A stretch of DNA of 64,000 nucleotides, from the NCBI GenBank assembly GCA_000004985.1, contig GG738882.1, one strand, 5' to 3'. The notes beneath the pieces are model-generated. The model was not told the origin of the DNA. It did no database searches and worked only from the letters and a program-made list of their open reading frames with translations. Positions 8,523 to 64,000 of the stretch are shown in pieces (within the stretch, counting starts at the first letter, position 1; each line of letters opens with the position of its first letter). A program made the translations under genes and the position numbers. This stretch comes from Naegleria gruberi. Its lineage: Eukaryota.

Positions 8523-11148
8523 TTAATCAGTACCAACTAGTTGTCTTTCCACTACTTGTTTGTAAAGACCTCCCTTTTGAAGCAGATTGAAATGCTCTCC
8601 TTGTTCCACAACTGAACCTTCCTCAATGACACAAACCTTATTGGCCTTTATCACTGTGGCAAGTTTGTGAGCTATAACGATAACAGTCCTTCCATTCATT
8701 AATGAATTGAGAGCTTGTTGAACTTGGCTGTCATATTGTACTTCTAAAGAATGAGAATATTCGTCCAAAATTAAAATCTTCGGATCCTTCAAAAGGATTC
8801 TAGCAATGGCGATTCTTTGACGTTCAGAGGCAGAAAGTCTGACTCCTCTTTCTCCAATAATAGTATCATATCCATCTTTGAAATTAGAAATAAATTCATG
8901 AACGTTTGCCTTCTTGGATGCTTCCATAACTTGCTCGTCTGTTGGAGCTTCATCACCAGTCCATCCGTAACAAATATTTTCACGAATTGAGGCACTAAAC
9001 ATGGCAGGATCCTGAGTAAGGAGACCAATGTTCTTTCTCAACCAAACAGGATCAATTTGAGTAAGTGGAACACCATCCAATGTAATTTGTCCATCATTTG
9101 GATCATAGAATCTTTGTAAGAGTGAGACAATGGTGGTCTTTCCTTGTCCTGGTCTACCAACCAAAGCCAAAATACTTGATGGTGACATTTCAAGGTTAAT
9201 CTTATTGAGTACTGAGTGTTCGGTTCTTGAAGGATAGGCAAATGAAACATCGTGCAAAACAATGTGACCATTCAATTTTGGAAGTTCTCTAGTATCGGAT
9301 TCCATAACGTTTGGATTACGTCTTTCAATGGCTGGAATACGTTGAAGTAAGTTGTAAACTCTAACAGTAGCCTCCAAAGCTCTAAACAATTCAACCAGCA
9401 ATCCACTCAAGACACCAAAGCTGGCAGCAACCAACAAGGTATACATGATGAAACTAATAAGAGATCCAACAGTTATTTCACCATCCACAACAAGTCTTCC
9501 ACCAAACCACAAAACGAGAATAATACTAGCATTACCAGCAAACATCATACCACCTGAAAAGATACCATTAGCAAATGAGAATTTTCTTGCCAATGAGAGA
9601 GTCAAATCAATAGCAGCACTGTACAAGCTAATATGCTTGGTTTCCTTTGCAAAACTACGAACAGTTCTCAAATTGGAGAAGGACTCTTCAGCAACATCAG
9701 TTGAATTGGCCAAAGCATCTTGTGTTCTCCTTGTGATATTCTTAATATATTTGGCATAAATTAAAGAAATAAAAACGAGTGGAGGTATGACAGCAAGCAT
9801 GATCAGAGTCAATTTCCAAGATATTATCAATAGGAAAACAATTCCACCAATTAATTGAGCCACATAACGTAAAAACATTGAAAGATTCACTGTAACGGCA
9901 TTTTCCAATGATTTTGTATCTGAACTCAATCTATTCAACAATTCTCCAGTTTTAGTGATATCAAAAAATCCAACTTCTTGAACAATGATGGAATTGAAAA
10001 GATCCTTTCTGAGACGGGCAACAGCACGTTCTCCAGCATATGTAAAACTATTATATTTGTAAAATATATAAATGAAATTGATTAGAAGAAACATACCAAA
10101 AGTTTCTCAATGCAGTTGTAAGGCCAATACCAGCCACAACACCTAGTATAATGAGAGCCATTTGATTAATATATTCCTTTCCTGTAGTTCCTGCAGGGAT
10201 GGTATTAATAATCTCGCCAACATAAATTGGTAGGAATAGGCTCAAACCAGTACTAACAATCAAAAATATAATTCCGAAAAAGACGAGTGGTGTTTGTCTA
10301 AATCCTAATTTCATCAACCACATAAATTGAGTAAAACTAATTCTTGGAAAGCTCTTGAAGAGTTTAGCAATGCCAGTAGCACTAACTGGATTTTCATCTA
10401 TAGCATTTGGCTTTAAATAATCATTATACGTATCATCAATATGGTTATCGTAGTATAACAATTCTCGATCGTAATCATCCTCCATGGAAATTTTGGTAGT
10501 GTTTGTAATTTCAACTTCAACATCATCACCATCTTCGAGGTTAACATTTTTCATTTCCTTGTGTTCATTGTGATTTGTTAATTTGACTTTACGATGTTCA
10601 TCATAGTCTTTTTCATTTTCCTCTTCTTCCTCGCTCAGTGATGGTTCATGATGATGGTTCAGGTCAGAACCGAGACTATTACTACTGGAAGTAGTATTAG
10701 CATTTCCATTTGTAGAAGTCAGGGAACCCTTAGAGACCAGAATTTGCTTTCTCTTCGGGAGTGGTGGAGTTTCCAAATCTTGAGCCTCTTCTTCCTTATT
10801 AACATTTCCAAAACGAACACGTAACTTGGATCTATCATCTTTAAAAGCAGGTGTATTTTCTATTGGTTCTTCATCATCCGAATCATTATTCTTCTTTGGT
10901 GTTATTGTCGAATCAACATCATGAGCAGCAGCCGTTGTTGATGGTGATGATGATTTCGATCCGTTAATTGTAGGTGATTTTTCCTTCTTTGTATGATGAG
11001 AGTCTTCATCTTGTTCTTCTTCATGATGATGATGATGCGAGGAAGAAAGTACAATATCATCCAACTCTTCCTCTAAATCTTCGTCTTCCTCATCTTCCAA
11101 AAGTCTCGATTGAGAACGCGTTTTTAACGAGCCAAGTAGTGATGGCAT
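8523..11148 (-). CDS. ABC transporter, B-family half transporter (TMD-NBD) with ~270-aa acidic/His-rich N-terminal extension; exons ~10096..11148 and ~8523..10047
   Basis: The TMD carries the ABCB motif ERAVARLRKDLFNSIIVQEVGFFD. Walker A is LVGRPGQGKTT. The ABC signature is LSASERQRIAIARILL. Walker B is ILILDE. The H-loop is TVIVIAHKL. A 48-nt intron (GTATGT...AATAG) splits ...ALRNF from ...FTYAGERAV. The N-terminal extension contains SSSHHHHHEEEQDEDSHH and D/E runs. Confidence 0.85.
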
Positions 11149-43743: not shown

Positions 43744-46700
43744 ATGTATTCGCATCCACATCATCAGTTATCTTCAACACCAAATAACACGATTGGACAA
43801 CAAACATCACCATCAGTAAATCATCATCAGCAACTTTCAAGTCCACACTATCATCAGCAACAACAACCAAACAATGTTTATCAACAACAACAACATAATA
43901 GTACTGTAATAGCGAGCTTTAATGATGCGTCTGGTGTTGCTTTTAATGGAAATAATATTAATGGTGGCAGTAGTCATAATAATATGCCAATAGGTGGTGG
44001 TCATGGAACTAGTTTGATGACTCAATTACTATCTAACAACAATAATAATAACAACAACAATCAATCGCCATCCATGATGCAACAACAACATATTCAACAT
44101 AATTTTGCAAATAATAATAATCAAACAACACAACAACATCAATTGATGGCTAATAATAACATGAACCAACACCATAATGGAAGTTTGAGTAGTAACAGTG
44201 GTTCTCCGAATATCCATAGTTCCTCGTATAATAATAACAATTATATGAATCATCCAAATTTTGTATTGAATTCAACTCCTTCACCCGATAATAATATGTA
44301 TTCTCAGCAACAACAACAAATGTATCATAATACACAATTGTCAAATAATAATTATCAAAATAGTCAACAACCAATGATGATGAACCGAGCATCTCCTAAT
44401 CAACAACAACAACAAATTAATAATACTAGTGTAATGGATAATAACCACCAACCATGGAATCAATCTTCGGGAGGTGGTATTTGGAATCAATTCGTGATGA
44501 ATAATTCTAATCAACAAGTAACTGCACAAAGAAATTATAATCAAGCACCAACTATGGTCCAACAACATCAACAAATGGATAATATGAACTACAGTTATGT
44601 AAATAATTCAAACCCCCAAAATAGTGCATTACTCAGTCAGTTATTAAATAATAATAATACCATGATGAACCAGAATCCAACAGATGTGACAATAGATTCA
44701 TTGAATTATGCAACATCATCTGCAGTCGATGAACAGGATGACGGAGCAGAAGCTCAGTTTCACCCAATTGCATGTTTGAATTGCAGGAAAATACATAAAA
44801 GGTACGTACAAGTCAAATAACCTATTTCTAATTTTAATAGATGGTAAGTGATTGAAATTAGTTCAGTAATAATTTAGATTTTTAATGAAAATTAGTGGTA
44901 AGTAATATTATTCGAATAATTAAAATTCTAAATGACTGCATTCTTAGATAAGAAATTACCTTTCTGTACCAGATGTACAACTAAAGGATTGAATTGTGAA
45001 TATAAGGAACCATTCTTTAAAAAGGCTGCGGAGAAGAAGGAAAAGAAAAGGAGGAAGAAAAAAGGTGACATTATTACTATGTTCAATGTTGGAGATGAAA
45101 ATGAAGTGGCAGCCAATGCTATTAAATCTATCAAACAGAACACAATTGAAACCTATTGCAGCATTGTTTGTATGGGTAATCCACCATTTGATCAAGAGGT
45201 ATGTTTGAAATCTAATAATCAAATAATTTATAACCTTTCACTAGGCATTAGAGAAGTTATTACTTGTTGGACCACAAGAGTTGCTTAGTCGTCGTGACGT
45301 TTTATCATTTCTCTTGTCTATTCAATCTCTGTGTGAATTAAAGTTTGGATATCCTGATTTGGCAGAGGAAACAATGATCAAGGCAAGAAACAGTTTGTCA
45401 CATCATTTCGATGATTATGAAAATCCTTTCGTTGTTTGCACATATTCCCATCTTGCATTCTTCTATGCAGCCGAAGGAAAAACCAAACAAGCAAGAGGAT
45501 ATCTCAGTTTTGTAAATCATTACATGAGTGATTGGAAACAAGGTCATACTGCAGAAGAATCTCCACATGGAGAAATGAATGGAACTTTATATAGAGTTAG
45601 TATTTCGAGATTGAATTGGTTGTGTCTCATAACAGAACTAATTTCAACAGAGACCCATCCTGTCCCTAACATCTCCACTATTGAAAAACTCTCCTTGGAC
45701 ATGCTTGGACTTGCAATGCCAGAAGAATGGAAAGTTTATCTCACATATTATCAATTAACTGATAGTAAGAATGTGGACGAAAGATTGAAAACTTTGGAAT
45801 TATTTGGATCACTCCTGCACTTTGCAATGGGCCCTCAAAATAATTCTGTCTTTGCAACAAGATTGCACAGTCTCAACAATATCATTTGTATTAATGGGAT
45901 TAGAGCTACAGTGTTACTTCTATCTGGATGTAATGTTGGTGCCTTACATGGGGTTGATACTGCAGGATCAGATAAGGTGATAGCAGAGCACATTAATTTA
46001 TTGGAATATGCTGCTCTAGCTATTAGTAAGACGACTGAAGAAGAGTTCTTCCCATTCATTTCACCATACTTAATTTCCTTCTTTTTGGTCGCAGTTAAGG
46101 TTAATTTGGAAATTTGTAAAATGATAGAAAGAGGAGAACGTGAAAATTATCGTCCTTGTCCTAAAATTGTAAATAGAGAAGTGAAATTGGATGGCATTGA
46201 TTTAGACCAATATTATACAGTTGTAGATTATTATAGTGTTGTAGCAAAAGACTTGCGTGGATTGCATGTACTGAGGAAACGATATCGTTACATTGCTAAA
46301 TATGTTACAGACTTGGAAGAATTTCTAGCAAAGAGGTCTACCCAATCTTTGGAATCTATTGCCAATTTTGCCAATTCTTCTATCATTCCTGATTTGAGAA
46401 TCAACCAACCTTTGACAAACACCAATAAGAGTGAAAGAATTGGAACTTTTTATAGTGAAATGAGGAAATTCATGTTGACTTTTAACAAGGGATTAGGTGA
46501 AGCTCTCTTGGGTCAACCAAGAAAAAGTGGAACAGGTGGTGACAATTTATTCTCCCATCCAGCTCTTTCTATGGTAATGAATGGGTCAATCAAACCTGGA
46601 AATGTTAACGAGTTATCAATGTACGTCTCTGAAATATCCAAGAACGTTCAAGAGCAAGCAGATGCCTTACGAGATTTGAGCACGCCTAGTTCTATTGATG

Positions 46701-46768
46701 ATATTGAATTGGATTTTGCCTCCACTTTGGATCCATTCCAAGCTCACAGTTCAGTCAATCAATTCTGA
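43744..46768 (+). CDS. Zn(II)2Cys6 transcription factor with fungal-type middle homology region (~950 aa); exons ~43744..44801, micro-exons ~44841..44843 and ~44896..44897, ~44948..45198, ~45245..46768
   Basis: Exon 1 is Q/N-rich and ends ...HPIACLNCRKIHK+AG. A later exon begins DKKLPFCTRCTTKGLNCEYKEPFF. Only the route through ATG and TG micro-exons yields CLNCRKIHKRCDKKLPFCTRCTTKGLNCEY, which is C-x2-C-x6-C-x6-C-x2-C-x6-C. Both micro-exons are followed by GTAAGT donors and preceded by AATAG or ATTAG acceptors. The last intron (GTATGT...CACTAG) joins ...DQE to ALEKLLLVGPQELLSRRDVLSF.... Confidence 0.65.
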
Positions 46769-46998: not shown

Positions 46999-49246
46999 AT
47001 GGTTATTAAAAAAATGTTCAAAGAAGACTTTCGAGAGACATCTTCTCGGAATAGGTCGGATGATGCCACAGCTGCTGACAGTGATTTCAATCAACAACCC
47101 TTCATCACAATACAGCATCATCATCATGATCATCATCAACCTTCTAGGAATCATCATAATTTTAATAGGTCATCATCACTCTCCATACATTCTCATCATA
47201 CAAATACCAATAGTAGAACAAGCCATCATCACCATCACAATAACAGTAATGATTCTAATCAGAGTTTTGAAATGGTTCCTCTGACTGTTCTTACTCCCTA
47301 CAAAAGTAGTACTCAACAGTCTTCTTCATCTAATCAAAGCCTTCTTTTGAGTCTTCCTTCCTCTCCATCAGCAACTCCAAGTTTGAAAAGGTCAAACTCT
47401 TCTGGAGGAGGTTTAGATATCACTCAACTCAGTGCAAGATCGAGTGATTTTAGCTTTCTAGAAGAAACTCAACAAGAAAATAAGAATAATATCGAGTATG
47501 CAGATTCGTACATGTTGATGTGGAGTCCTTGGCATTCAATGTATAATAATTTATTTGTAGAATTTTGGATGGTGAAAATTAATTCTAGGCTTGACGATGA
47601 GGAATGTACAAATATTGGAGAGAATGTAAATTGTAAATTATTGCCAATTAAACAAGCTTCAAAGAGCTCGAATTTGGAAAGATTTCCAACTGGAAACTTT
47701 TGGAGTTATTCTGTTGGATTGGAAACATTTAGAGAAAATCAACAATCAAATCAAAGTGTTTCTACTCATTATTTTGGTAATGAGCTTGAAGATTTGATTA
47801 TTTGCTTTTTTGGAGTGACGAAAATTATGAAATTTAAATTGAATGTGAGCAAGATGAAAATTAGAGATCGAAAATCTTCGACCACTCATGAATATGTAAC
47901 AGGAGTAGAGTCTGTAGAGTTTGTAGAGCTAATTGATTATGACTTTCTCAGTAGGTAAGTTACATAATTCGAGGATTAGTTAAATTAACTTTGATAGAAA
48001 GTCTCCTCTAGATGCTTATTCATCGTGGGACTCATTCCCAGACTCAGATGATATTGACGAATCTGGGAATGAAATCACACAAGATATTTACCAATCTCTA
48101 TTTCGTTCCAGTCACAATGCTCTCAAAATTAGTAACATTCCTCGTTTAGAATTTGTACATAATGATAATGAGCTCAATTTTGTAAAGTGTGACAATGACT
48201 ATAATTTTAATATTTATTCAATGAACAAGAGAAGAATGGATGATAATGGGAATTATTCTCTCTCGTTAGAGTTGACACCTCAAACACCTACAAGCAGTAG
48301 TAGCACAACTCTGGCAATTATTCAAAAGACGAGTGTCTATTTATCAAAGGTTCACTCACTGAATGTTCTGTTTTTCCAAAAGCAAACAACTAGAAAACTT
48401 TTTAATAAGGCAAAAAGTCCAACTAGTGGAAGATTTGAATTACGATCATTAAATTCTGTCAAGACAGGATTTGAAACGATTGGAGATGTAATCCCATTTG
48501 ATTTAGATACAGAGAGTGGGCTGCATCAACCCAGCCAATACGTAAAAGTTTGTAAATTCGATGATAACATGTTTGTCGTTTTGGAAATTGACAAATACCT
48601 ATTGAAAAAGCTAGGAGACAAAGAGGTGAATGCTGAAAATATTGATTCAATGCTCAATACGCATCACCACCACGTTACTAGCTTACCCAAATATTTTAAA
48701 TTATTCATTCTAGATTTAAGCAATCCAGAAGATGTTAAAATCAAAAAACTCACCAATCTCAAAAAGCAACAACATACTTCACCTAAATTGAATAGTAGTA
48801 TTTACAAATTTAGTACGGAAATTTCAACAACAACCTCGAATAATATTTATTCCTCATCTTCATCTCTTGGAATAGAAGAATCAAAGGGATTTATTCCTAT
48901 TTACAAACACCAAAAGTCGAAGAAGAGAACCACAAAATCTCATTTCACATTTCAACACAATGATGATGTGTTTAACATGATTGTTTTTAAACAAGATCCT
49001 CACAAAAATCCCCATCACTACACTCTGGCAATATTCTACAAAGCATTTGGGGATAGATATCAATTCAATGGTGAAGTATCAGATCATTCACCATTTAAAG
49101 GAAGATGGTACGAACTTGTTCACTTTACACATGTTTCATGGTCAAAGTACAAAACCCTTTTTGACCACGCCAATTTTCTTAATCATGCTGATCCTTCACT
49201 AATTTCCAATCTAGGTTTTACAGATTTGTATTTTGAATTTGATTAA
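46999..49246 (+). CDS. hypothetical His/Ser-rich protein (~735 aa); exons 46999..47954 and ~47998..49246
   Basis: ATG start. His runs are present (QHHHHDHHQPSRNHH, SHHHHHNN). The 43-nt intron (GTAAGT...TTGATAG) joins ...DYDFLS(R) to KSPLDAYSSWDSFPDSDD... and stays in frame with the downstream 341-aa ORF. No known domain. Confidence 0.5.
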
Positions 49247-53032: not shown

Positions 53033-56000
53033 GTGAAAGGCATTACAATTCCATCCACAAACAAAATGTCCAACAATATCCTTGTTAATTTGCTTGTGTT
53101 AACTTTTTGCTTGTGTTTTGTTGCGTTTGCCAGCTTTTCCAATGCAGCTGCTGTGAAATATAAGATTACAACGGTACTTAGTTCTCTCGAAACACCGAAA
53201 TCTATTCACGTACTAACAAGTGGTGATATTTATTTTGGTGAATATAACACAATATCAAGTAGAGTTAAAAAGTGAGTATTTGATCTTTAAAACTTGACTT
53301 ACTTTCGAAGACTGTCTTCAGGTTCAACAACAACAATTGTTGGTGGTGGAACAACAACCACTGATGGAGCTTCTCTTACAGACGCATTATTGAGTAAGTT
53401 TTTTTAGATTGGTCAACCAAACTAATTCTTCACAATAGCTGGATTATATTTTTGCTTTGACGAAACCAACAACAAAATGTACATTAGTGACGAAGGCTTA
53501 CATAAAATAAGACTGGCCGATCTTGGAAATAATAATATTAACACATTAACCAGTAATTCCTACAGTCCAACATTTATAACATTAGATAGTGTAAACAGTA
53601 GAGTGCTATTCACTGATCCTGAAGATTATAGTGTTCGTTATTTCAGCTTATCATCTCCATCAACCGTAACACCTGTCAGTGCTTCGACAAATACTGTTTC
53701 TGGTATCACAGTTTCGACAGCTGGAGAATATTATTTCGCAGATGGATCCAGCAAAGTCATAAAACTTACTTTACCAAATACGAAAAGTAATTATGTAACT
53801 GGATTGAGTAATCCTCAAGGATTATTTTGGAGATCTAATGAACTGTTCATTGTAGATGCTGATAGTACAACTCCTAAAATTAAGAAGTATGATGGAACAA
53901 CTCTTACAGATATTGCTGGAGGTGGATCTTCTGGTTGTGCGAATGATATTGAGGCAACAAGTTGCAAATTATCAAGCTCCATCTCAGGTATTTACGTCAC
54001 CAACAAGAATGAAATTTACATCACTGAAGCCAGAAGTTCACCTAATGGAAATATCAAGAAAATTTATCCATATTGTGATAGTGGTTATCAATTATCTTCT
54101 GATGGAAAAACATGTGATCCTATTTGTTATTCTAAAGTAGGAGANNNNNNNNNNNNNNNNNNNNNNNNNNNNNNNNNNNNNNNNNNNNNNNNNNGGCTTA
54201 TCTGGTCCAACAGGAATATTCTACACAACGTATAATGAAATATTCATTTCTGATTCTGGAAATAAGAAGATCAAGAAATATGAAGGGGGATCAACCTCAG
54301 ATTTTGCTGGTGCCAGTGGAGCTGGGACTACTTGTGCAGAAGACTCAGAAGCTCTCTCTTGCTATTTTTCAACTAGTATTTATGGTATTTTCGTTACTGA
54401 CAAGAATGAAGTTTATGTAACTGAAGGAATATCCGACACTGGAACTGTTAAGAAAATTTATCCATACTGTGATAGTGGTTATCAATTAACATCTGATGGA
54501 AGATCATGTGTTCCTATTTGTTATTCCAAAGTAGGGGATGCTGCCTGTGGAGGACCAACTCAAGGAGCTTGTAGTGCTCCTGATACTTGTCAATGTACCA
54601 CCAATTATTTTGGAAACGAATGTGGCTCACCAAAGTGTTATGGAAAAACATCCAATGCCTGTAATAATCAAGGTACCTGCACTGCAGTCGATACTTGTGT
54701 TTGCAATGCTAACTATTTTGGAAATGAGTGCACTTCACCAAAGTGTTATGGAAAAACCTCCAACGCTTGTAACAATCAAGGTACTTGTACTGCAGTCGAC
54801 ACTTGTGTTTGTAATGCCAACTATTATGGAAACGAATGTACTTCTCCAAAGTGTTATGGAAAAACATCCAATGCCTGTAACAATCAAGGTACTTGCACTG
54901 CAGTCGACACTTGTGTTTGCAATGCTAATTACTACGGAAATGAGTGCACTTCCCCAAAGTGTTATGGAAAAACATCCACAACAGCTTGTAACTTGAAAGG
55001 TACCTGCACAGCAGTTGACTCTTGTCAATGTAATACCAATTACTATGGAAATGAATGTACAGTCACAACTTGTGATGGCAAGTATTCCAATACTTCAGTT
55101 GCTTGTAACAACCAAGGAACTTGTGCTGATTATAATACTTGCAATTGTAATACTAATTATGGAGGTTCTTATTGCAGTCTTCCAAAATGTGGTGGAATTC
55201 TGTCAGATAATCCATCCGTCTGTTCAGCAAATGGCACCTGTGCTGGTGTTAATAATTGTCAATGTAATTCTCTCTATACAGGATCCAATTGTGAAACTCC
55301 TATTTGTTATGGAATTCAAGCCACTCAAACATCAACTGTGTGCTCTGGACAAGGTATTTGTGTGGCTGGTGACAAGTGTGTTTGTAAAGATTATTCCAAA
55401 TATACTGGACTAAAGTGTGATTCTCCAATTTGTAACTCAAAACCTTCAACAGATCCAAATGTTTGTAACTCTAGAGGTACATGTACTGCACCAAATACTT
55501 GCCAATGTACTGATACTAATCTATTTGGTGGAAATGATTGTGAACTATTCAAGTGTAATGGTACACTCTCCAATCAAGGATCAGTTTGTAGTGGAAGAGG
55601 TACATGTTTAGCCAATAATATTTGTCAATGTACTGATACTAGCTCTTGGGGAGGAAATTTTTGTTCAATTCCTAAATGTAATGGAATTCTTGCCAATGAC
55701 ACTAGAAAATGTTCATCTAGAGGTAATTGTATTTCACCAAACACTTGCCAATGTTATGAGAGTAATAATTATGGTGGATCAGATTGTGAAATTTTCAAAT
55801 GTGGTGGAATCCTTTCTACTAATACTTCTAAAGTTTGTTCTGGAAAGGGTACTTGTAAATCATTGAATAACTGTGAATGTTTACCTAATTATGGTGGTGC
55901 TAATTGTGAACTTGTTAAATGTTTTGGCATTTTACAAAACGAAAGTTCAGTATGTAGTGGAAAAGGTTCATGTAAGAATGTTGATACATGTCAATGTGAT

Positions 56001-57656: not shown

Positions 57657-57805
57657 AAGTATTATTAAAATTATTTTTGTTCTAAGGACCTTTACTTTTC
57701 CTGAATAACTTGTTTGGTTGTACATGACATTTGTTGGAGATGAATGCATGAAAACAATTATTTCAACATGTTTGACTGTATCTTCTTTAAACTCTCTGCC
57801 AGAAC

Positions 57806-60800
57806 NNNNNNNNNNNNNNNNNNNNNNNNNNNNNNNNNNNNNNNNNNNNNNNNNNNNNNNNNNNNNNNNNNNNNNNNNNNNNNNNNNNNNNNNNNNNNNN
57901 NNNNNNNNNNNNNNNNNNNNNNNNNNNNNNNNNNNNNNNNNNNNNNNNNNNNNNNNNNNNNNNNNNNNNNNNNNNNNNNNNNNNNNNNNNNNNNNNNNNN
58001 NNNNNNNNNNNNNNNNNNNNNNNNNNNNNNNNNNNNNNNNNNNNNNNNNNNNNNNNNNNNNNNNNNNNNNNNNNNNNNNNNNNNNNNNNNNNNNNNNNNN
58101 NNNNNNNNNNNNNNNNNNNNNNNNNNNNNNNNNNNNNNNNNNNNNNNNNNNNNNNNNNNNNNNNNNNNNNNNNNNNNNNNNNNNNNNNNNNNNNNNNNNN
58201 NNNNNNNNNNNNNNNNNNNNNNNNNNNNNNNNNNNNNNNNNNNNNNNNNNNNNNNNNNNNNNNNNNNNNNNNNNNNNNNNNNNNNNNNNNNNNNNNNNNN
58301 NNNNNNNNNNNNNNNNNNNNNNNNNNNNNNNNNNNNNNNNNNNNNNNNNNNNNNNNNNNNNNNNNNNNNNNNNNNNNNNNNNNNNNNNNNNNNNNNNNNN
58401 NNNNNNNNNNNNNNNNNNNNNNNNNNNNNNNNNNNNNNNNNNNNNNNNNNNNNNNNNNNNNNNNNNNNNNNNNNNNNNNNNNNNNNNNNNNNNNNNNNNN
58501 NNNNNNNNNNNNNNNNNNNNNNNNNNNNNNNNNNNNNNNNNNNNNNNNNNNNNNNNNNNNNNNNNNNNNNNNNNNNNNNNNNNNNNNNNNNNNNNNNNNN
58601 NNNNNNNNNNNNNNNNNNNNNNNNNNNNNNNNNNNNNNNNNNNNNNNNNNNNNNNNNNNNNNNNNNNNNNNNNNNNNNNNNNNNNNNNNNNNNNNNNNNN
58701 NNNNNNNNNNNNNNNNNNNNNNNNNNNNNNNNNNNNNNNNNNNNNNNNNNNNNNNNNNNNNNNNNNNNNNNNNNNNNNNNNNNNNNNNNNNNNNNNNNNN
58801 NNNNNNNNNNNNNNNNNNNNNNNNNNNNNNNNNNNNNNNNNNNNNNNNNNNNNNNNNNNNNNNNNNNNNNNNNNNNNNNNNNNNNNNNNNNNNNNNNNNN
58901 NNNNNNNNNNNNNNNNNNNNNNNNNNNNNNNNNNNNNNNNNNNNNNNNNNNNNNNNNNNNNNNNNNNNNNNNNNNNNNNNNNNNNNNNNNNNNNNNNNNN
59001 NNNNNNNNNNNNNNNNNNNNNNNNNNNNNNNNNNNNNNNNNNNNNNNNNNNNNNNNNNNNNNNNNNNNNNNNNNNNNNNNNNNNNNNNNNNNNNNNNNNN
59101 NNNNNNNNNNNNNNNNNNNNNNNNNNNNNNNNNNNNNNNNNNNNNNNNNNNNNNNNNNNNNNNNNNNNNNNNNNNNNNNNNNNNNNNNNNNNNNNNNNNN
59201 NNNNNNNNNNNNNNNNNNNNNNNNNNNNNNNNNNNNNNNNNNNNNNNNNNNNNNNNNNNNNNNNNNNNNNNNNNNNNNNNNNNNNNNNNNNNNNNNNNNN
59301 NNNNNNNNNNNNNNNNNNNNNNNNNNNNNNNNNNNNNNNNNNNNNNNNNNNNNNNNNNNNNNNNNNNNNNNNNNNNNNNNNNNNNNNNNNNNNNNNNNNN
59401 NNNNNNNNNNNNNNNNNNNNNNNNNNNNNNNNNNNNNNNNNNNNNNNNNNNNNNNNNNNNNNNNNNNNNNNNNNNNNNNNNNNNNNNNNNNNNNNNNNNN
59501 NNNNNNNNNNNNNNNNNNNNNNNNNNNNNNNNNNNNNNNNNNNNNNNNNNNNNNNNNNNNNNNNNNNNNNNNNNNNNNNNNNNNNNNNNNNNNNNNNNNN
59601 NNNNNNNNNNNNNNNNNNNNNNNNNNNNNNNNNNNNNNNNNNNNNNNNNNNNNNNNNNNNNNNNNNNNNNNNNNNNNNNNNNNNNNNNNNNNNNNNNNNN
59701 NNNNNNNNNNNNNNNNNNNNNNNNNNNNNNNNNNNNNNNNNNNNNNNNNNNNNNNNNNNNNNNNNNNNNNNNNNNNNNNNNNNNNNNNNNNNNNNNNNNN
59801 NNNNNNNNNNNNNNNNNNNNNNNNNNNNNNNNNNNNNNNNNNNNNNNNNNNNNNNNNNNNNNNNNNNNNNNNNNNNNNNNNNNNNNNNNNNNNNNNNNNN
59901 NNNNNNNNNNNNNNNNNNNNNNNNNNNNNNNNNNNNNNNNNNNNNNNNNNNNNNNNNNNNNNNNNNNNNNNNNNNNNNNNNNNNNNNNNNNNNNNNNNNN
60001 NNNNNNNNNNNNNNNNNNNNNNNNNNNNNNNNNNNNNNNNNNNNNNNNNNNNNNNNNNNNNNNNNNNNNNNNNNNNNNNNNNNNNNNNNNNNNNNNNNNN
60101 NNNNNNNNNNNNNNNNNNNNNNNNNNNNNNNNNNNNNNNNNNNNNNNNNNNNNNNNNNNNNNNNNNNNNNNNNNNNNNNNNNNNNNNNNNNNNNNNNNNN
60201 NNNNNNNNNNNNNNNNNNNNNNNNNNNNNNNNNNNNNNNNNNNNNNNNNNNNNNNNNNNNNNNNNNNNNNNNNNNNNNNNNNNNNNNNNNNNNNNNNNNN
60301 NNNNNNNNNNNNNNNNNNNNNNNNNNNNNNNNNNNNNNNNNNNNNNNNNNNNNNNNNNNNNNNNNNNNNNNNNNNNNNNNNNNNNNNNNNNNNNNNNNNN
60401 NNNNNNNNNNNNNNNNNNNNNNNNNNNNNNNNNNNNNNNNNNNNNNNNNNNNNNNNNNNNNNNNNNNNNNNNNNNNNNNNNNNNNNNNNNNNNNNNNNNN
60501 NNNNNNNNNNNNNNNNNNNNNNNNNNNNNNNNNNNNNNNNNNNNNNNNNNNNNNNNNNNNNNNNNNNNNNNNNNNNNNNNNNNNNNNNNNNNNNNNNNNN
60601 NNNNNNNNNNNNNNNNNNNNNNNNNNNNNNNNNNNNNNNNNNNNNNNNNNNNNNNNNNNNNNNNNNNNNNNNNNNNNNNNNNNNNNNNNNNNNNNNNNNN
60701 NNNNNNNNNNNNNNNNNNNNNNNNNNNNNNNNNNNNNNNNNNNNNNNNNNNNNNNNNNNNNNNNNNNNNNNNNNNNNNNNNNNNNNNNNNNNNNNNNNNN

Positions 60801-61766
60801 NNNNNNNNNNNNNNNNNNNNNNNNNNNNNNNNNNNNNNNNNNNNNNNNNNNNNNNNNNNNNNNNNNNNNNNNNNNNNNNNNNNNNNNNNNNNNNNNNNNN
60901 NNNNNNNNNNNNNNNNNNNNNNNNNNNNNNNNNNNNNNNNNNNNNNNNNNNNNNNNNNNNNNNNNNNNNNNNNNNNNNNNNNNNNNNNNNNNNNNNNNNN
61001 NNNNNNNNNNNNNNNNNNNNNNNNNNNNNNNNNNNNNNNNNNNNNNNNNNNNNNNNNNNNNNNNNNNNNNNNNNNNNNNNNNNNNNNNNNNNNNNNNNNN
61101 NNNNNNNNNNNNNNNNNNNNNNNNNNNNNNNNNNNNNNNNNNNNNNNNNNNNNNNNNNNNNNNNNNNNNNNNNNNNNNNNNNNNNNNNNNNNNNNNNNNN
61201 NNNNNNNNNNNNNNNNNNNNNNNNNNNNNNNNNNNNNNNNNNNNNNNNNNNNNNNNNNNNNNNNNNNNNNNNNNNNNNNNNNNNNNNNNNNNNNNNNNNN
61301 NNNNNNNNNNNNNNNNNNNNNNNNNNNNNNNNNNNNNNNNNNNNNNNNNNNNNNNNNNNNNNNNNNNNNNNNNNNNNNNNNNNNNNNNNNNNNNNNNNNN
61401 NNNNNNNNNNNNNNNNNNNNNNNNNNNNNNNNNNNNNNNNNNNNNNNNNNNNNNNNNNNNNNNNNNNNNNNNNNNNNNNNNNNNNNNNNNNNNNNNNNNN
61501 NNNNNNNNNNNNNNNNNNNNNNNNNNNNNNNNNNNNNNNNNNNNNNNNNNNNNNNNNNNNNNNNNNNNNNNNNNNNNNNNNNNNNNNNNNNNNNNNNNNN
61601 NNNNNNNNNNNNNNNNNNNNNNNNNNNNNNNNNNNNNNNNNNNNNNNNNNNNNNNNNNNNNNNNNNNNNNNNNNNNNNNNNNNNNNNNNNNNNNNNNNNN
61701 NNNNNNNNNNNNNNNNNNNNNNNNNNNNNNNNNNNNNNNNNNNNNNNNNNNNNNNNNNNNNNNNNN
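57806..61766. other. assembly gap (3961 N)
   Basis: A run of n characters. The two 1350-aa 'ORFs' of X residues across it are artefacts. Confidence 0.99.
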
Positions 61767-62560
61767 GTAATGACAGATATTTAAAGGTCAGGTCAGTACT
61801 AACTTTTGAATTATGGACTTTGAGAAGTCAAATGTTTGGGACGTGAATCTACTCATTGGATTGAACAGGTATTGCTAATAAAGGAACATTTCATTGATTT
61901 ATTGATTATAACGGTCAAATTGAGTTGAATGTAAGTGAATCTAATGTTGATTGATCGTGGATGGGTAGTTTCGCCACGAAGTGGTGCAACTACCAACCTT
62001 TGTAGATTGAATCAGGTTGTTTTGCATGCAATATGAATAAGCAACATTATCAAGAGTGATTATTCACCAATTCAATGATCAATATTCAATAATCGGTTTG
62101 ATTTCAATCAATAGCTTGATCATCAAGCTTTGAATTAATATTCCAGTAATTAACGGCAGTCTATTTTTAAATTTAATCAAAGACCATATATAGTATCTAG
62201 ACTTTTATGATCTGGAAACTATCTAGATGTGTTCTATATTGAATAATCTATTTGAAAATGAGATGAATTAACTCTTCTATTGAGTTTTATTGGTATTGCA
62301 AGGTATTACGATTATAATAATCTACACAGAAATCACTCTTCAAATATAAACTGTACTACAATGTATGAGAAACATAACGGCGGTGGAATTAATCAATAAA
62401 TAATTGAAATGACTGAGATGGAATGTAAACTATGGTCTATTTGTCATGAAATGGTGACTAGACAGTGTCAATTTCATCAAATTATTTCAAACTGATTACA
62501 TTCAATAAAAAACCGTTCTATACATCAAACATGTCATACAGAATGAGTTTCAATATTTAA

Positions 62561-62793
62561 GGGTTTGGGTTTGGGTTTGGGTTTGGGTTTGGGTTTGGTT
62601 TGGGTTTGGGTTTGGTTTGGGTTTGGGTTTGGTTTGGGTTTGGGTTTGGGTTTGGGTTTGGGTTTGGGTTTGGGTTTGGGTTTGGGTTTGGGTTTGGGTT
62701 TGGGTTTGGGTTTGGGTTTGGGTTTGGTTTGGGTTTGGGTTTGGGTTTGGGTTTGGGTTTGGGTTTGGGTTTGGGTTTGGGTTTGGGTTTGGG
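62561..62793 (+). repeat. interstitial telomere-like repeat (GGGTTT)n with GGTTT variant units, ~233 bp, followed by a 50-N gap (62794..62843)
   Basis: The repeat starts abruptly after ...caatatttaa and reads gggtttgggtttgggtttggtttgggtttggg.... The G-rich strand is on + and points toward the window end. Confidence 0.9.
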
Positions 62794-63034
62794 NNNNNNN
62801 NNNNNNNNNNNNNNNNNNNNNNNNNNNNNNNNNNNNNNNNNNNGTCATATAAGGATAGGTCATTAAGGTTTGAATGAATTGATATGAAAATCAATACCAA
62901 TTTTGAAATGCCATTATTAATTGATCTATATATGATATTGTAATTGAAAGATTTTAAAATTAATATGATTTCACTATCTTGACATTTATTATTCTCATGA
63001 TTACACTCCTGACATGTTGAATGATATCAAATTG

Positions 63035-63095: not shown

Positions 63096-63595
63096 TGATC
63101 TGTATAGTGGATGTCGTTGTCACATCCCTGTAGGTGTCAAGTAGATCAGCCATGTACCATGTATGATGTGGATGAATATCAAAATGATATTAATGTATTT
63201 CATTAACATATATAGATGTATTGGAAGTGAATTGAAGTGGTATAGATTTCTATCTTCGATGTTAGTATTGGTCAGTTGACAAGTTGAATAGTTAATTTCC
63301 TGAAATGATACCATAGTATTTGAAACTGATATATATTGTTATTAACATGATTTACAAGGTGATATATTGGTATGAATTGATTTTGAAATGTTTACATTGA
63401 TATTCTAATTGTCTAATCTATTATATGAAATTAACTTATATAAGTCATTATAATGATGTAATATTATGTTATTATATGATTATATATTCAATTTGGAGTA
63501 TATTGATATATAATATATTGATTTATAATGAGTATTTATTGAGAAAATCAATTAAGATGACTAAAAATCAAAATGTTGGGTCTGACCTTAGTCGT

Positions 63596-64000
63596 GGGTT
63601 TGGGTTTGGGTTTGGGTTTGGGTTTGGGTTTGGGTTTGGGTTTGGGTTTGGGTTTGGGTTTGGGTTTGGGTTTGGGTTTGGGTTTGGGTTTGGGTTTGGG
63701 TTTGGGTTTGGGTTTGGGTTTGGGTTTGGGTTTGGGTTTGGGTTTGGGTTTGGGTTTGGGTTTGGGTTTGGGTTTGGGTTTGGGTTTGGGTTTGGGTTTG
63801 GGTTTGGGTTTGGGTTTGGGTTTGGGTTTGGGTTTGGGTTTGGGTTTGGGTTTGGGTTTGGGTTTGGGTTTGGGTTTGGGTTTGGGTTTGGGTTTGGGTT
63901 TGGGTTTGGGTTTGGGTTTGGGTTTGGGTTTGGGTTTGGGTTTGGGTTTGGGTTTGGGTTTGGGTTTTGGGTTTGGGTTTGGGTTTGGGTTTGGGTTTGG
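63596..64000 (+). repeat. terminal telomeric array (GGGTTT)n, >=405 bp, running to the last base of the window
   Basis: About 67 near-perfect hexamers, with one GGGTTTT variant near 63965. The G-rich strand runs 5'->3' toward the end, which is the orientation expected of a true chromosome terminus. Confidence 0.9.

What the first reader, a model, noticed from the sequence alone, without database searches (positions are those of the whole stretch)
44795..44950. Zn2Cys6 motif apparently reconstituted through two micro-exons of 3 nt (ATG) and 2 nt (TG)
Exon 1 ends CLNCRKIHK+AG, which holds Cys1 and Cys2 of a GAL4-type cluster. The next long exon begins (G)AT-AAG... and encodes DKKLPFCTRCTTKGLNCEY, which holds Cys4 to Cys6. 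Direct joining gives a stop codon or loses Cys3. Between them lie AATAG|ATG|GTAAGTG and AAATTAG|TG|GTAAGTA, two consensus donor sites each preceded by an acceptor and 2-3 exon nucleotides. Using both gives AG+A=Arg, TG+T=Cys and G+AT=Asp. The result is CLNCRKIHKRCDKKLPFCTRCTTKGLNCEY, exactly C-x2-C-x6-C-x6-C-x2-C-x6-C. The three introns would be 39, 52 and 50 nt, which matches the mini-intron class seen elsewhere in the window. Micro-exons this small are rare. Here the catalytically essential Cys3 would be encoded across two of them.
Basis: inference. Interest (0 to 1): 0.7.

Follow-up and report, generated by a model that had tools for sequence, protein, structure and literature searches.

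The report
Two tiny exons rebuild zinc finger
In a Naegleria gruberi transcription-factor gene, the zinc-binding DNA-binding domain is complete only if two exons of 3 and 2 nucleotides, separated by ~50-nt introns, are spliced in; relatives encode the same residues without these breaks, the reference annotation misses them, and no RNA data could be checked.

Summary
The window is Naegleria gruberi NEG-M, a heterolobosean amoeba, not a fungus. The gene is NAEGRDRAFT_58688.

Splicing 44802-44840 (39 nt), 44844-44895 (52 nt) and 44898-44947 (50 nt) leaves ATG and TG as exons. This gives ...CRKIHK-R-C-D-KKLPFCTRC..., a full Zn2Cys6 cluster.

- **Relatives:** four relatives (N. fowleri, N. lovaniensis, Willaertia magna, one metagenome contig) encode HK(R/K)CD contiguously. 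Each has one phase-1 intron, at the position of intron 3. Introns 1 and 2 are therefore probably gains in the N. gruberi lineage.
- **Uniqueness:** of 37 in-frame GT-AG splice paths, only this one restores all six cysteines.
- **Chance:** exact HKRCDKK arose in 1 of 200,000 shuffles.
- **Domain score:** Pfam Zn_clus scores 41.2 bits for this model. The annotated model scores nothing.
- **Annotated model:** it removes one 171-nt intron and deletes CDKKLPFCTR. Those nine codons differ from N. fowleri by 6 synonymous and 1 non-synonymous change, so they are translated.

No transcript evidence was reachable, so the splice pattern is a strong comparative inference (about 0.8). Exons of 1-3 nt are known in plants and animals. 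A tandem 3+2 nt pair in a protist is a new member of that kind.

The parts
43744..44801 (+). Exon 1. It encodes the Q/N-rich N-terminus and ends with FHPIACLNCRKIHK + AG, which holds Cys1, Cys2 and the first two bases of the Arg codon.
   Evidence: The ORF is open from the ATG at 43744. It is identical to the N-terminus of the annotated protein XP_002674751.1. HPIAC..CRK.HK is conserved in the relatives.
44802..44840 (+). Intron 1: 39 nt, phase 2, GTACGT...TCTAAT...AATAG. It is absent from all four relatives.
   Evidence: The relatives have contiguous AAA CGN/AAA TGY G at this point.
44841..44843 (+). Micro-exon 1, ATG. It supplies the third base of Arg (AG|A) and the first two bases of Cys3 (TG).
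   Evidence: It is flanked by AATAG| and |GTAAGT.
44844..44895 (+). Intron 2: 52 nt, phase 2, inside the Cys3 codon, GTAAGT...ATTAG. It is absent from all four relatives.
44896..44897 (+). Micro-exon 2, TG. It supplies the third base of Cys3 (T) and the first base of Asp (G).
   Evidence: An independent environmental contig, L005 (about 99% identical), has the same sequence, but that contig only starts at window 44892.
44898..44947 (+). Intron 3: 50 nt, phase 1, in the Asp codon G|AT, GTAAGT...CTTAG. It sits at the position of the single conserved intron of the relatives.
   Evidence: N. lovaniensis, N. fowleri, L003 and W. magna all have TGY G|GT...AG|AC at this position, with introns of 156, 204, 38 and 52 nt.
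44948..45198 (+). Exon 4: (D)KKLPFCTRCTTKGLNCEYKEPFFKK...NPPFDQE. It holds Cys4 to Cys6 and the basic linker.
   Evidence: Codon comparison with N. fowleri over the 38-codon cluster region: 13 identical, 19 synonymous, 6 non-synonymous.
44971..44972 (+). The AG acceptor (TACCAG|ATGT) used by the public annotation for a single 171-nt intron, 44802-44972. This is the rival model. It is formed by the AGA Arg codon inside exon 4.
   Evidence: The annotated protein reads HKRCTTKGLNCEY. N. fowleri and N. lovaniensis have CGT/CGA here, so the acceptor is not conserved in those two species. L003 and W. magna also have AGA at this codon.
45199..45244 (+). Intron 4: 46 nt, phase 0, GTATGT...CACTAG.
   Evidence: Splicing it gives PPFDQE|ALEKLLL, collinear with PPIRQEDLTKLLL of the relatives. 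The public annotation uses an upstream donor and drops VCMGNPPFDQE.
45245..46768 (+). Exon 5: C-terminal domain of about 500 aa shared with the Naegleria and Willaertia relatives. It has no Pfam match. The range includes the stop codon.

Best explanation
**What it is.** This is the Zn2Cys6 (Gal4-type) DNA-binding domain of the Naegleria gruberi gene NAEGRDRAFT_58688. The 5 nucleotides A-TG-T-G complete the Arg codon, encode the third zinc-ligand Cys and start the Asp codon. They are split over two constitutive micro-exons, ATG and TG. Three abutting mini-introns of 39, 52 and 50 nt surround them, each with its own consensus donor (GTACGT, GTAAGT, GTAAGT), a YTRAY-like branch motif and a TAG acceptor.

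**How it most likely works (inferred, not shown).**
- The introns are recognised by intron definition and removed one after another, not at the same time. A U1 site covering -3 to +6 of one donor overlaps the AG acceptor of the intron before it.
- In the co-transcriptional 5'-to-3' order, each step extends the long 5' exon by 3 and then 2 nt.
- Each step presents the next donor in an unchanged context: ATG|GTAAGT, then GTG|GTAAGT.

**Evolution.** Intron 3 is the ancestral phase-1 intron of this gene. Introns 1 and 2 were gained in the N. gruberi lineage within 5 nt upstream of it.

**Annotation.** The public single-intron model is a prediction artefact, because gene finders and read aligners cannot place exons of 2-3 nt.
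For: **Shown here**
- The sequence and the spliced product are as described.
- It is the only one of 37 in-frame GT-AG paths that gives six cysteines.
- Exact HKRCDKK with consensus splice sites arose in 1 of 200,000 dinucleotide shuffles.
- Four relatives encode HK(R/K)CD contiguously, with one phase-1 intron at the intron 3 position.
- Across the spliced cluster versus N. fowleri there are 19 synonymous and 6 non-synonymous codon changes. The cluster region is 32/38 identical, against 47% for the whole protein.
- Pfam Zn_clus scores 41.2 bits for this model and 43.0 for N. fowleri. The annotated model scores nothing. The other Cys3-less models score 20.1-27.8 bits.
- R-C-D aligns to K-C-D of the solved HAP1 structure.
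- Mini-introns of 46 and 49 nt with the same signals are independently supported in the window.
- The downstream half of the structure is identical in an independent environmental contig.

**From the literature**
- Constitutive 1-nt exons exist in plants and are routinely mis-annotated.
- Sequential removal of the flanking introns was proposed for them (PMC4674806, PMC8831610).
Against: - No cDNA, EST or RNA-seq junction evidence could be reached. Two protein searches found no transcript-derived protein spanning the junction.
- The public annotation uses a different in-frame splice, with a good-looking pyrimidine-rich acceptor at 44972.
- The micro-exons are not conserved in any other available genome. 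No species of intermediate distance was found.
- The environmental contig does not reach micro-exon 1.
- Two intron gains 3 nt apart are a priori improbable, and no origin mechanism was identified.
- Orthology rests on best hit and full-length collinearity. No flank synteny was detected.
Confidence: 0.8

Rival explanations
1. The public annotation (XP_002674751.1) is right. A single 171-nt intron, 44802-44972, joins AAAAG to ATGTACA. The protein then reads CLNCRKIHKRCTTKGLNCEY, has only four cysteines and has no functional Zn2Cys6 cluster.
For: - It is in frame and stop-free with canonical GT-AG sites.
- The acceptor CCTTTCTGTACCAG is pyrimidine-rich.
- It needs no exotic exon.
Against: - It treats DKKLPFCTR as intron. 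Those nine codons differ from N. fowleri by 6 synonymous and 1 non-synonymous change, with 2 identical, which marks translated sequence.
- The acceptor AG comes from an AGA Arg codon. N. fowleri and N. lovaniensis have CGT/CGA there.
- The product has no Pfam Zn_clus match.
- The same model also mis-splices intron 4 and drops 11 residues that the relatives keep. This points to an ab initio model rather than a cDNA-based one.
Confidence: 0.06
2. The DNA-binding domain is decaying in N. gruberi. The mRNA uses one of the simpler in-frame paths that lack Cys3. Examples are the 20-nt exon 44878-44897 (HKRFLMKISDKK), skipping of the ATG exon (HKSDKK), or the 147-nt intron 44806-44952 (HKRYKLPFC). 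On this view the perfect micro-exon arrangement is fortuitous.
For: - Several such paths exist with canonical dinucleotides.
- They need fewer or larger exons.
- Some still score weakly on Pfam, at 20.1-27.8 bits.
Against: - The other five cysteines and nearly all other cluster residues are conserved, with a strong excess of synonymous change. That would not be expected once an essential ligand is lost.
- The chance of an exact RCD-restoring arrangement with consensus sites is about 5e-6 in shuffles.
- These paths use weaker sites, such as donor GTACAA at 44806 or the acceptor at 44877.
Confidence: 0.05
3. Micro-exon inclusion is regulated rather than constitutive. The full-cluster mRNA coexists with skipped forms. 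Skipping ATG alone gives an in-frame Cys3-less protein. Skipping TG alone, or both, gives an immediate stop (AGA TGA or AGA TAA). Splicing would then act as a switch on the amount of DNA-binding-competent factor.
For: - The consequences of each skip follow directly from the sequence.
- Micro-exons are often alternatively spliced in other organisms (PMC8831610).
- The competing acceptor at 44972 exists.
Against: - No expression data are available.
- All three donors are near-perfect consensus, which favours constitutive use.
- This rival is compatible with the main explanation rather than exclusive of it.
Confidence: 0.15

Closest known systems
Ultra-short constitutive micro-exons of plants: the 1-nt exons of APC11 and VPS55, and the adjacent 5-nt + 12-nt exons in a rice gene (Guo & Liu 2015, PMC4674806; Yu et al. 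2022, PMC8831610)
   Same: - The exons are smaller than a codon and are flanked by canonical, strong (GTRAGT) donors.
- They are needed to keep the frame and a conserved protein segment.
- They are systematically missing from reference annotations.
- Sequential removal of the flanking introns has been proposed.
   Different: - Here two such exons (3 nt and 2 nt) are directly adjacent and are separated by mini-introns of only 39-52 nt.
- The organism is a heterolobosean protist.
- The micro-exons are lineage-specific, whereas the plant examples are conserved across land plants.
- There is no RNA validation yet.
Zn2Cys6 binuclear cluster transcription factors (Pfam PF00172; Gal4, HAP1/CYP1, PUT3, LAC9)
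   Same: - The spacing is C-x2-C-x6-C-x6-C-x2-C-x6-C.
- It has basic residues between Cys2 and Cys3.
- It has a Pro two residues before Cys4.
- It matches the HAP1, PUT3 and LAC9 solved structures at E = 9e-6 to 3e-4.
   Different: - It is found in Heterolobosea, not fungi.
- The C-terminal domain of about 500 aa has no Pfam match, so no fungal-specific transcription factor domain was detected.
- The cluster is interrupted by three introns.
Recursive (ratchet-point) splicing in Drosophila and vertebrates, and fungal stwintrons (both named from my own knowledge; recursive splicing is also discussed in PMC4674806)
   Same: - A stretch between two real exons has to be removed in several ordered steps.
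- A 3' splice site directly abuts a 5' splice site (AG|..|GTAAGT).
   Different: - Ratchet points leave zero exonic nucleotides and subdivide very long introns. Here 3 and 2 nt are retained and the introns are among the shortest in the genome.
- In stwintrons an inner intron interrupts a splice signal of the outer one. Here each intron has complete signals of its own.

Membership tests
Zn2Cys6 binuclear cluster domain (PF00172) | Six cysteines with spacing C-x2-C-x6-C-x5-12-C-x2-C-x6-8-C | tested here: met
   The feature is met only by the micro-exon splice path. All 36 other in-frame paths fail.
Zn2Cys6 binuclear cluster domain (PF00172) | Score above the Pfam gathering threshold (21 bits) | tested here: met
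   The domain alone scores 41.2 bits and the 623-aa model 36.4 bits. The annotated model has no hit.
Zn2Cys6 binuclear cluster domain (PF00172) | Residue-level similarity to experimentally solved clusters | tested here: met
   HAP1/CYP1 (1pyc, 1hwt) matches at E = 9e-6, PUT3 at 4e-5 and LAC9 at 3e-4. RCDK aligns with KCDK of HAP1.
Zn2Cys6 binuclear cluster domain (PF00172) | Binds two zinc ions and binds DNA | not testable with these tools
   This needs biochemistry.
Ultra-short coding micro-exons (3 nt or less) | Canonical acceptor immediately upstream and canonical donor immediately downstream of the 1-3 nt | tested here: met
   The sites read AATAG|ATG|GTAAGT and ATTAG|TG|GTAAGT.
Ultra-short coding micro-exons (3 nt or less) | Inclusion is required to keep the reading frame and a conserved protein segment | tested here: met
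   Skipping TG, or both exons, gives a stop. Skipping ATG loses Cys3. Inclusion reproduces the relatives' RCD.
Ultra-short coding micro-exons (3 nt or less) | Junctions observed in RNA (RT-PCR or junction reads) | not testable with these tools
   No transcript-derived sequence was found.
Ultra-short coding micro-exons (3 nt or less) | Conservation of the micro-exon in related species. This is typical of the plant cases but is not strictly defining. | tested here: not met
   N. fowleri, N. lovaniensis, W. magna and L003 encode the 5 nt inside exon 1. The only near-identical contig starts inside intron 2.
Zero-nucleotide recursive splice sites (ratchet points) | AG|GTAAGT juxtaposition with no retained exonic nucleotide, inside a long intron | tested here: not met
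   Here 3 nt and 2 nt are retained, and they are needed for the frame. The introns are 39-52 nt.
Stwintron (nested spliceosomal twin intron) | An internal intron interrupts the donor, branch site or acceptor of the external intron | tested here: not met
   Each of the three introns has an intact donor and an intact acceptor. The same mRNA results from any order of removal.
Introner / transposon-derived or duplication-derived new introns | Near-identical copies elsewhere in the genome, or clear similarity between neighbouring introns | tested here: inconclusive
   No copy of 15 nt or more was found elsewhere in the 64-kb window. Intron 2 against intron 3 gives z = 2.5, no better than intron 2 against the unrelated intron 4. 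The rest of the genome could not be searched.

The most novel reading that the evidence does not exclude
The Cys3 codon region of this Naegleria gene family is a hot spot of intron turnover. Four different intron positions occur within 7 nt across family members. N. gruberi gained two introns beside an existing donor. This created a natural substrate that can only be spliced in an obligatory order, in a recursive-like way. Its micro-exon inclusion may gate production of a DNA-binding-competent factor, because skipped forms are either Cys3-less or stopped at once. If confirmed, these would be the shortest tandem exons known outside plants. They would also be a tractable model for the lower limit of exon size with minimal introns.
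Probability: 0.2. Interest if true: 0.75.

Novelty: new member of a known kind. Interest (0 to 1): 0.55.

Why it matters
- **Annotation.** If confirmed by RNA, the reference annotation of this gene is wrong. The public protein lacks its DNA-binding domain, while the real one would be a complete Zn2Cys6 factor. The same blind spot probably hides other micro-exons in Naegleria and other protists with mini-introns.
- **Splicing mechanism.** Two adjacent exons of 3 and 2 nt between introns of 39-52 nt would be an extreme natural test of how small an exon can be and of whether neighbouring introns must be removed in order.
- **Intron evolution.** It documents two apparent lineage-specific intron gains within 5 nt of an old intron. 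The ancestral state is clear in four relatives.

Tried and rejected
- I looked for species of intermediate distance, to date the intron gains and test conservation. A protein-alignment scan and a degenerate DNA pattern for CEYKEP[VF]FKK on JGI metagenome contigs both returned nothing.
- A second protein search, with a 198-aa query spanning both junctions, returned only the exon-4 ORF of contig L005 and a Willaertia paralogue.
- A third, profile-based search returned only its own first sequence.
- Literature searches found no paper on Naegleria micro-exons, on Zn2Cys6 factors in Naegleria, or on this locus tag.

**Tests that were negative or inconclusive**
- Origin of the new introns by tandem duplication or an introner-like element: no significant similarity between the introns and no copies in the window. 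This stays inconclusive.
- Flank synteny with N. fowleri and N. lovaniensis: none detected with 3-kb flanks. One search also failed on file paths.

**Ideas rejected**
- A single non-canonical intron cannot give R-C-D, because the string ATGTG does not occur contiguously anywhere in 44802-44947.
- A fungal origin is excluded, because three window ORFs are exact matches to N. gruberi NEG-M proteins.
Full report
**1. What is in the sequence**

- A long ORF opens at the ATG at 43744. It ends its coding sense with ...GCA TGT TTG AAT TGC AGG AAA ATA CAT AAA AG at 44801.
- Then come GTACGT...AATAG (44802-44840, 39 nt) and ATG (44841-44843).
- Next come GTAAGT...ATTAG (44844-44895, 52 nt) and TG (44896-44897).
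- Next come GTAAGT...CTTAG (44898-44947, 50 nt) and AT AAG AAA TTA CCT TTC TGT...
- Removing the three stretches gives ACLNCRKIHKRCDKKLPFCTRCTTKGLNCEYKE.
- Joining 44801 directly to 44948 gives AGA TAA, a stop.

Downstream, a 46-nt intron (45199-45244) links exon 4 to a long last exon ending at 46768. The full model is 945 aa.

**2. Whose genome, and which gene**

The window is not fungal. Three intronless ORFs of the window are exact matches to Naegleria gruberi NEG-M proteins on a 381,539-bp scaffold.

The gene is annotated as NAEGRDRAFT_58688 / XP_002674751.1, 924 aa. That model reads ...CLNCRKIHKRCTTKGLNCEY.... It removes one 171-nt intron, 44802-44972, and uses an AG inside what I call exon 4. 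This deletes CDKKLPFCTR, which includes two cysteines. It also uses an upstream donor at the next intron and so drops VCMGNPPFDQE.

**3. Is it more than chance?**

- I enumerated all GT-AG paths through 44785-44990 with up to three introns of at least 25 nt. There are 37 in-frame, stop-free products. Only the 39/52/50 path contains a full C-x2-C-x6-C-x5-12-C-x2-C-x6-8-C pattern.
- I shuffled the 146 nt, keeping dinucleotide content and both ends fixed. With bare GT/AG, 8% of shuffles allow some cluster-restoring path.
- With donors GTANGT and acceptors YAG, 0.3% do. The exact HKRCDKK appeared once in 200,000.
- Only 28 GTAAGT hexamers occur in the whole window on both strands. Two of them are 54 nt apart here.

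**4. Comparative evidence**

This is the core of the case. The closest proteins are from N. lovaniensis, N. fowleri, Willaertia magna and an ENA metagenome contig, at 37-47% identity over about 570 aligned residues. A paralogue group sits at about 29%.

- Three relatives read HKRCDKKLP.C.RC and Willaertia reads HKKCDRRKPSCSRC. These are the residues the micro-exons supply.
- Their DNA (loci L001-L004) shows AAA CGN TGY G|GT...AG|AC AAR. The codons for R/K and Cys3 and the first base of Asp are contiguous with exon 1.
- A single phase-1 intron of 156, 204, 38 or 52 nt follows. That is the position and phase of intron 3 of the window.
- Intron 3 is therefore ancestral. Introns 1 and 2 are additions in the N. 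gruberi lineage.
- Codon comparison of the spliced N. gruberi cluster with N. fowleri gives 13 identical, 19 synonymous and 6 non-synonymous codons.
- In the nine codons DKKLPFCTR that the public model treats as intron, the counts are 2 identical, 6 synonymous and 1 non-synonymous. That stretch is therefore translated.
- The cluster is 32/38 identical to N. fowleri, against 47% for the whole protein.
- The acceptor used by the public model is formed by an AGA Arg codon. N. fowleri and N. lovaniensis have CGT/CGA there.

**5. Domain tests**

| Model | Pfam Zn_clus score (gathering threshold 21 bits) |
|---|---|
| Micro-exon model | 41.2 |
| N. fowleri relative | 43.0 |
| Public annotated model | no hit |
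| 20-nt-exon model | 20.1 |
| 147-nt single-intron model | 23.1 |
| ATG-skipped model | 27.8 |

Against solved structures, the domain matches HAP1/CYP1, PUT3 and LAC9. R-C-D-K aligns on K-C-D-K of HAP1.

**6. Are such small introns normal here?**

- A scan for GTANGT...YAG stretches that bridge long open frames finds candidates of 33-63 nt, with 16-33% GC and TAG acceptors.
- Two are independently supported. The 46-nt intron 4 is supported by collinearity with the relatives.
- The 49-nt intron at 10048-10096 on the minus strand is supported because one continuous ABC_membrane domain match, protein residues 89-298, spans its junction at residue 150.
- The introns of 39, 52 and 50 nt belong to this class. 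Each has a CTAAT/TTAAT-like motif 10-20 nt before its TAG (read from the sequences).

**7. Mechanism (inferred)**

- A U1 site on one intron's donor covers the acceptor AG of the previous intron. The three introns therefore cannot be occupied at the same time. They must be removed one after another by intron definition, as was proposed for the 1-nt exon of Arabidopsis APC11 (PMC4674806).
- The donor contexts do not change whichever order is used. ATG|GTAAGT lies wholly inside micro-exon 1. GTG|GTAAGT has a G at -3 both before and after upstream splicing.
- The consequences of errors follow from the sequence. Skipping ATG alone gives an in-frame HKSDKK without Cys3. Skipping TG alone gives AGA TGA. 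Skipping both gives AGA TAA.

**8. Origin**

- I found no significant similarity among introns 1-3 and no copies elsewhere in the window. Duplication or an introner-like origin is neither supported nor excluded.
- Intron positions around Cys3 vary within the family. A N. lovaniensis paralogue has a phase-0 intron just before the Cys3 codon (L006). A Willaertia paralogue has none (L007).
- Four positions within 7 nt are thus used across the family.

**9. What is missing**

No RNA evidence was available.

- No transcript-derived protein bridging the junction exists in the protein collection.
- Metagenome scans for intermediate relatives found nothing.
- The one near-identical environmental contig (L005) begins at window 44892. 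It confirms only the TG exon and intron 3 as genuine genomic sequence.
- Local synteny with the relatives was not detectable. Orthology therefore rests on best hit and full-length collinearity.

**10. Comparison with what is known, and verdict**

- Exons of 1-3 nt are established. Plants have 1-nt exons in APC11 and VPS55 and adjacent 5-nt + 12-nt exons in rice. All are routinely missed by annotation (PMC8831610, PMC4674806).
- No paper on micro-exons in Naegleria was found.
- This locus is a new member of that kind. It is unusual for three reasons: two sub-codon exons in tandem, mini-introns of about 50 nt, and a lineage-specific origin next to an old intron.
- It is not a zero-nucleotide ratchet point and not a stwintron.
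- I put 0.8 on the micro-exon mRNA being the main functional product. Interest is moderate to high for splicing and annotation specialists, pending a simple RT-PCR or k-mer check.

Noticed in passing
window 62561-62793 and 63595-64000: There are two arrays of the hexamer GGGTTT/TGGGTT, with 39.5 and 67.5 copies at 96-99% match. The second runs to the window end, with the G-rich strand pointing outward. They look like telomere repeats, so the window probably lies at a scaffold or chromosome end.
   Followed up: no
window 54145-54194, 57806-61766, 62794-62843: These are assembly gaps (runs of N of 50, 3961 and 50 nt). The long ORFs listed at 57718-61784 are artefacts of translating through N.
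   Followed up: partly
window 45166-45244: The public model XP_002674751.1 also mis-splices the next intron. It uses donor ATT|GTTTGT instead of GAG|GTATGT and drops VCMGNPPFDQE, which all relatives retain.
   Followed up: yes
L001 3817-3828 and L002 3902-3913: The orthologous intron of N. lovaniensis and N. fowleri begins GTATG|GTAAGT. These are tandem donors 5 nt apart. The annotated, frame-preserving donor is the weaker-looking GTATGG. Use of the consensus GTAAGT would shift the frame.
   Followed up: no
L006 2127-2230 and L007 1702-1770: Paralogues place introns differently around Cys3. The N. lovaniensis paralogue has a 50-nt phase-0 intron directly before the Cys3 codon. A Willaertia paralogue has no intron in the cluster.
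   Followed up: partly
window 45245-46768: The C-terminal domain of about 500 aa of this Zn2Cys6 protein has no Pfam match. Within the searches made, it was found only in Naegleria, Willaertia and related metagenome contigs. Conserved motifs include NLEICKMI-RGERxN and SKRYRY.
   Followed up: partly
window 43744-44700: The first 320 or so residues of the protein are an extreme Q/N-rich low-complexity region with runs of N and Q. The relatives also have long low-complexity N-termini, but these are not alignable with this one.
   Followed up: no
window 47949-47997: The downstream gene has overlapping candidate donors, CAG|TAG|GTAAGT (GTAGGT at 47951 and GTAAGT at 47955). Each bridges long open frames in a different phase.
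   Followed up: no
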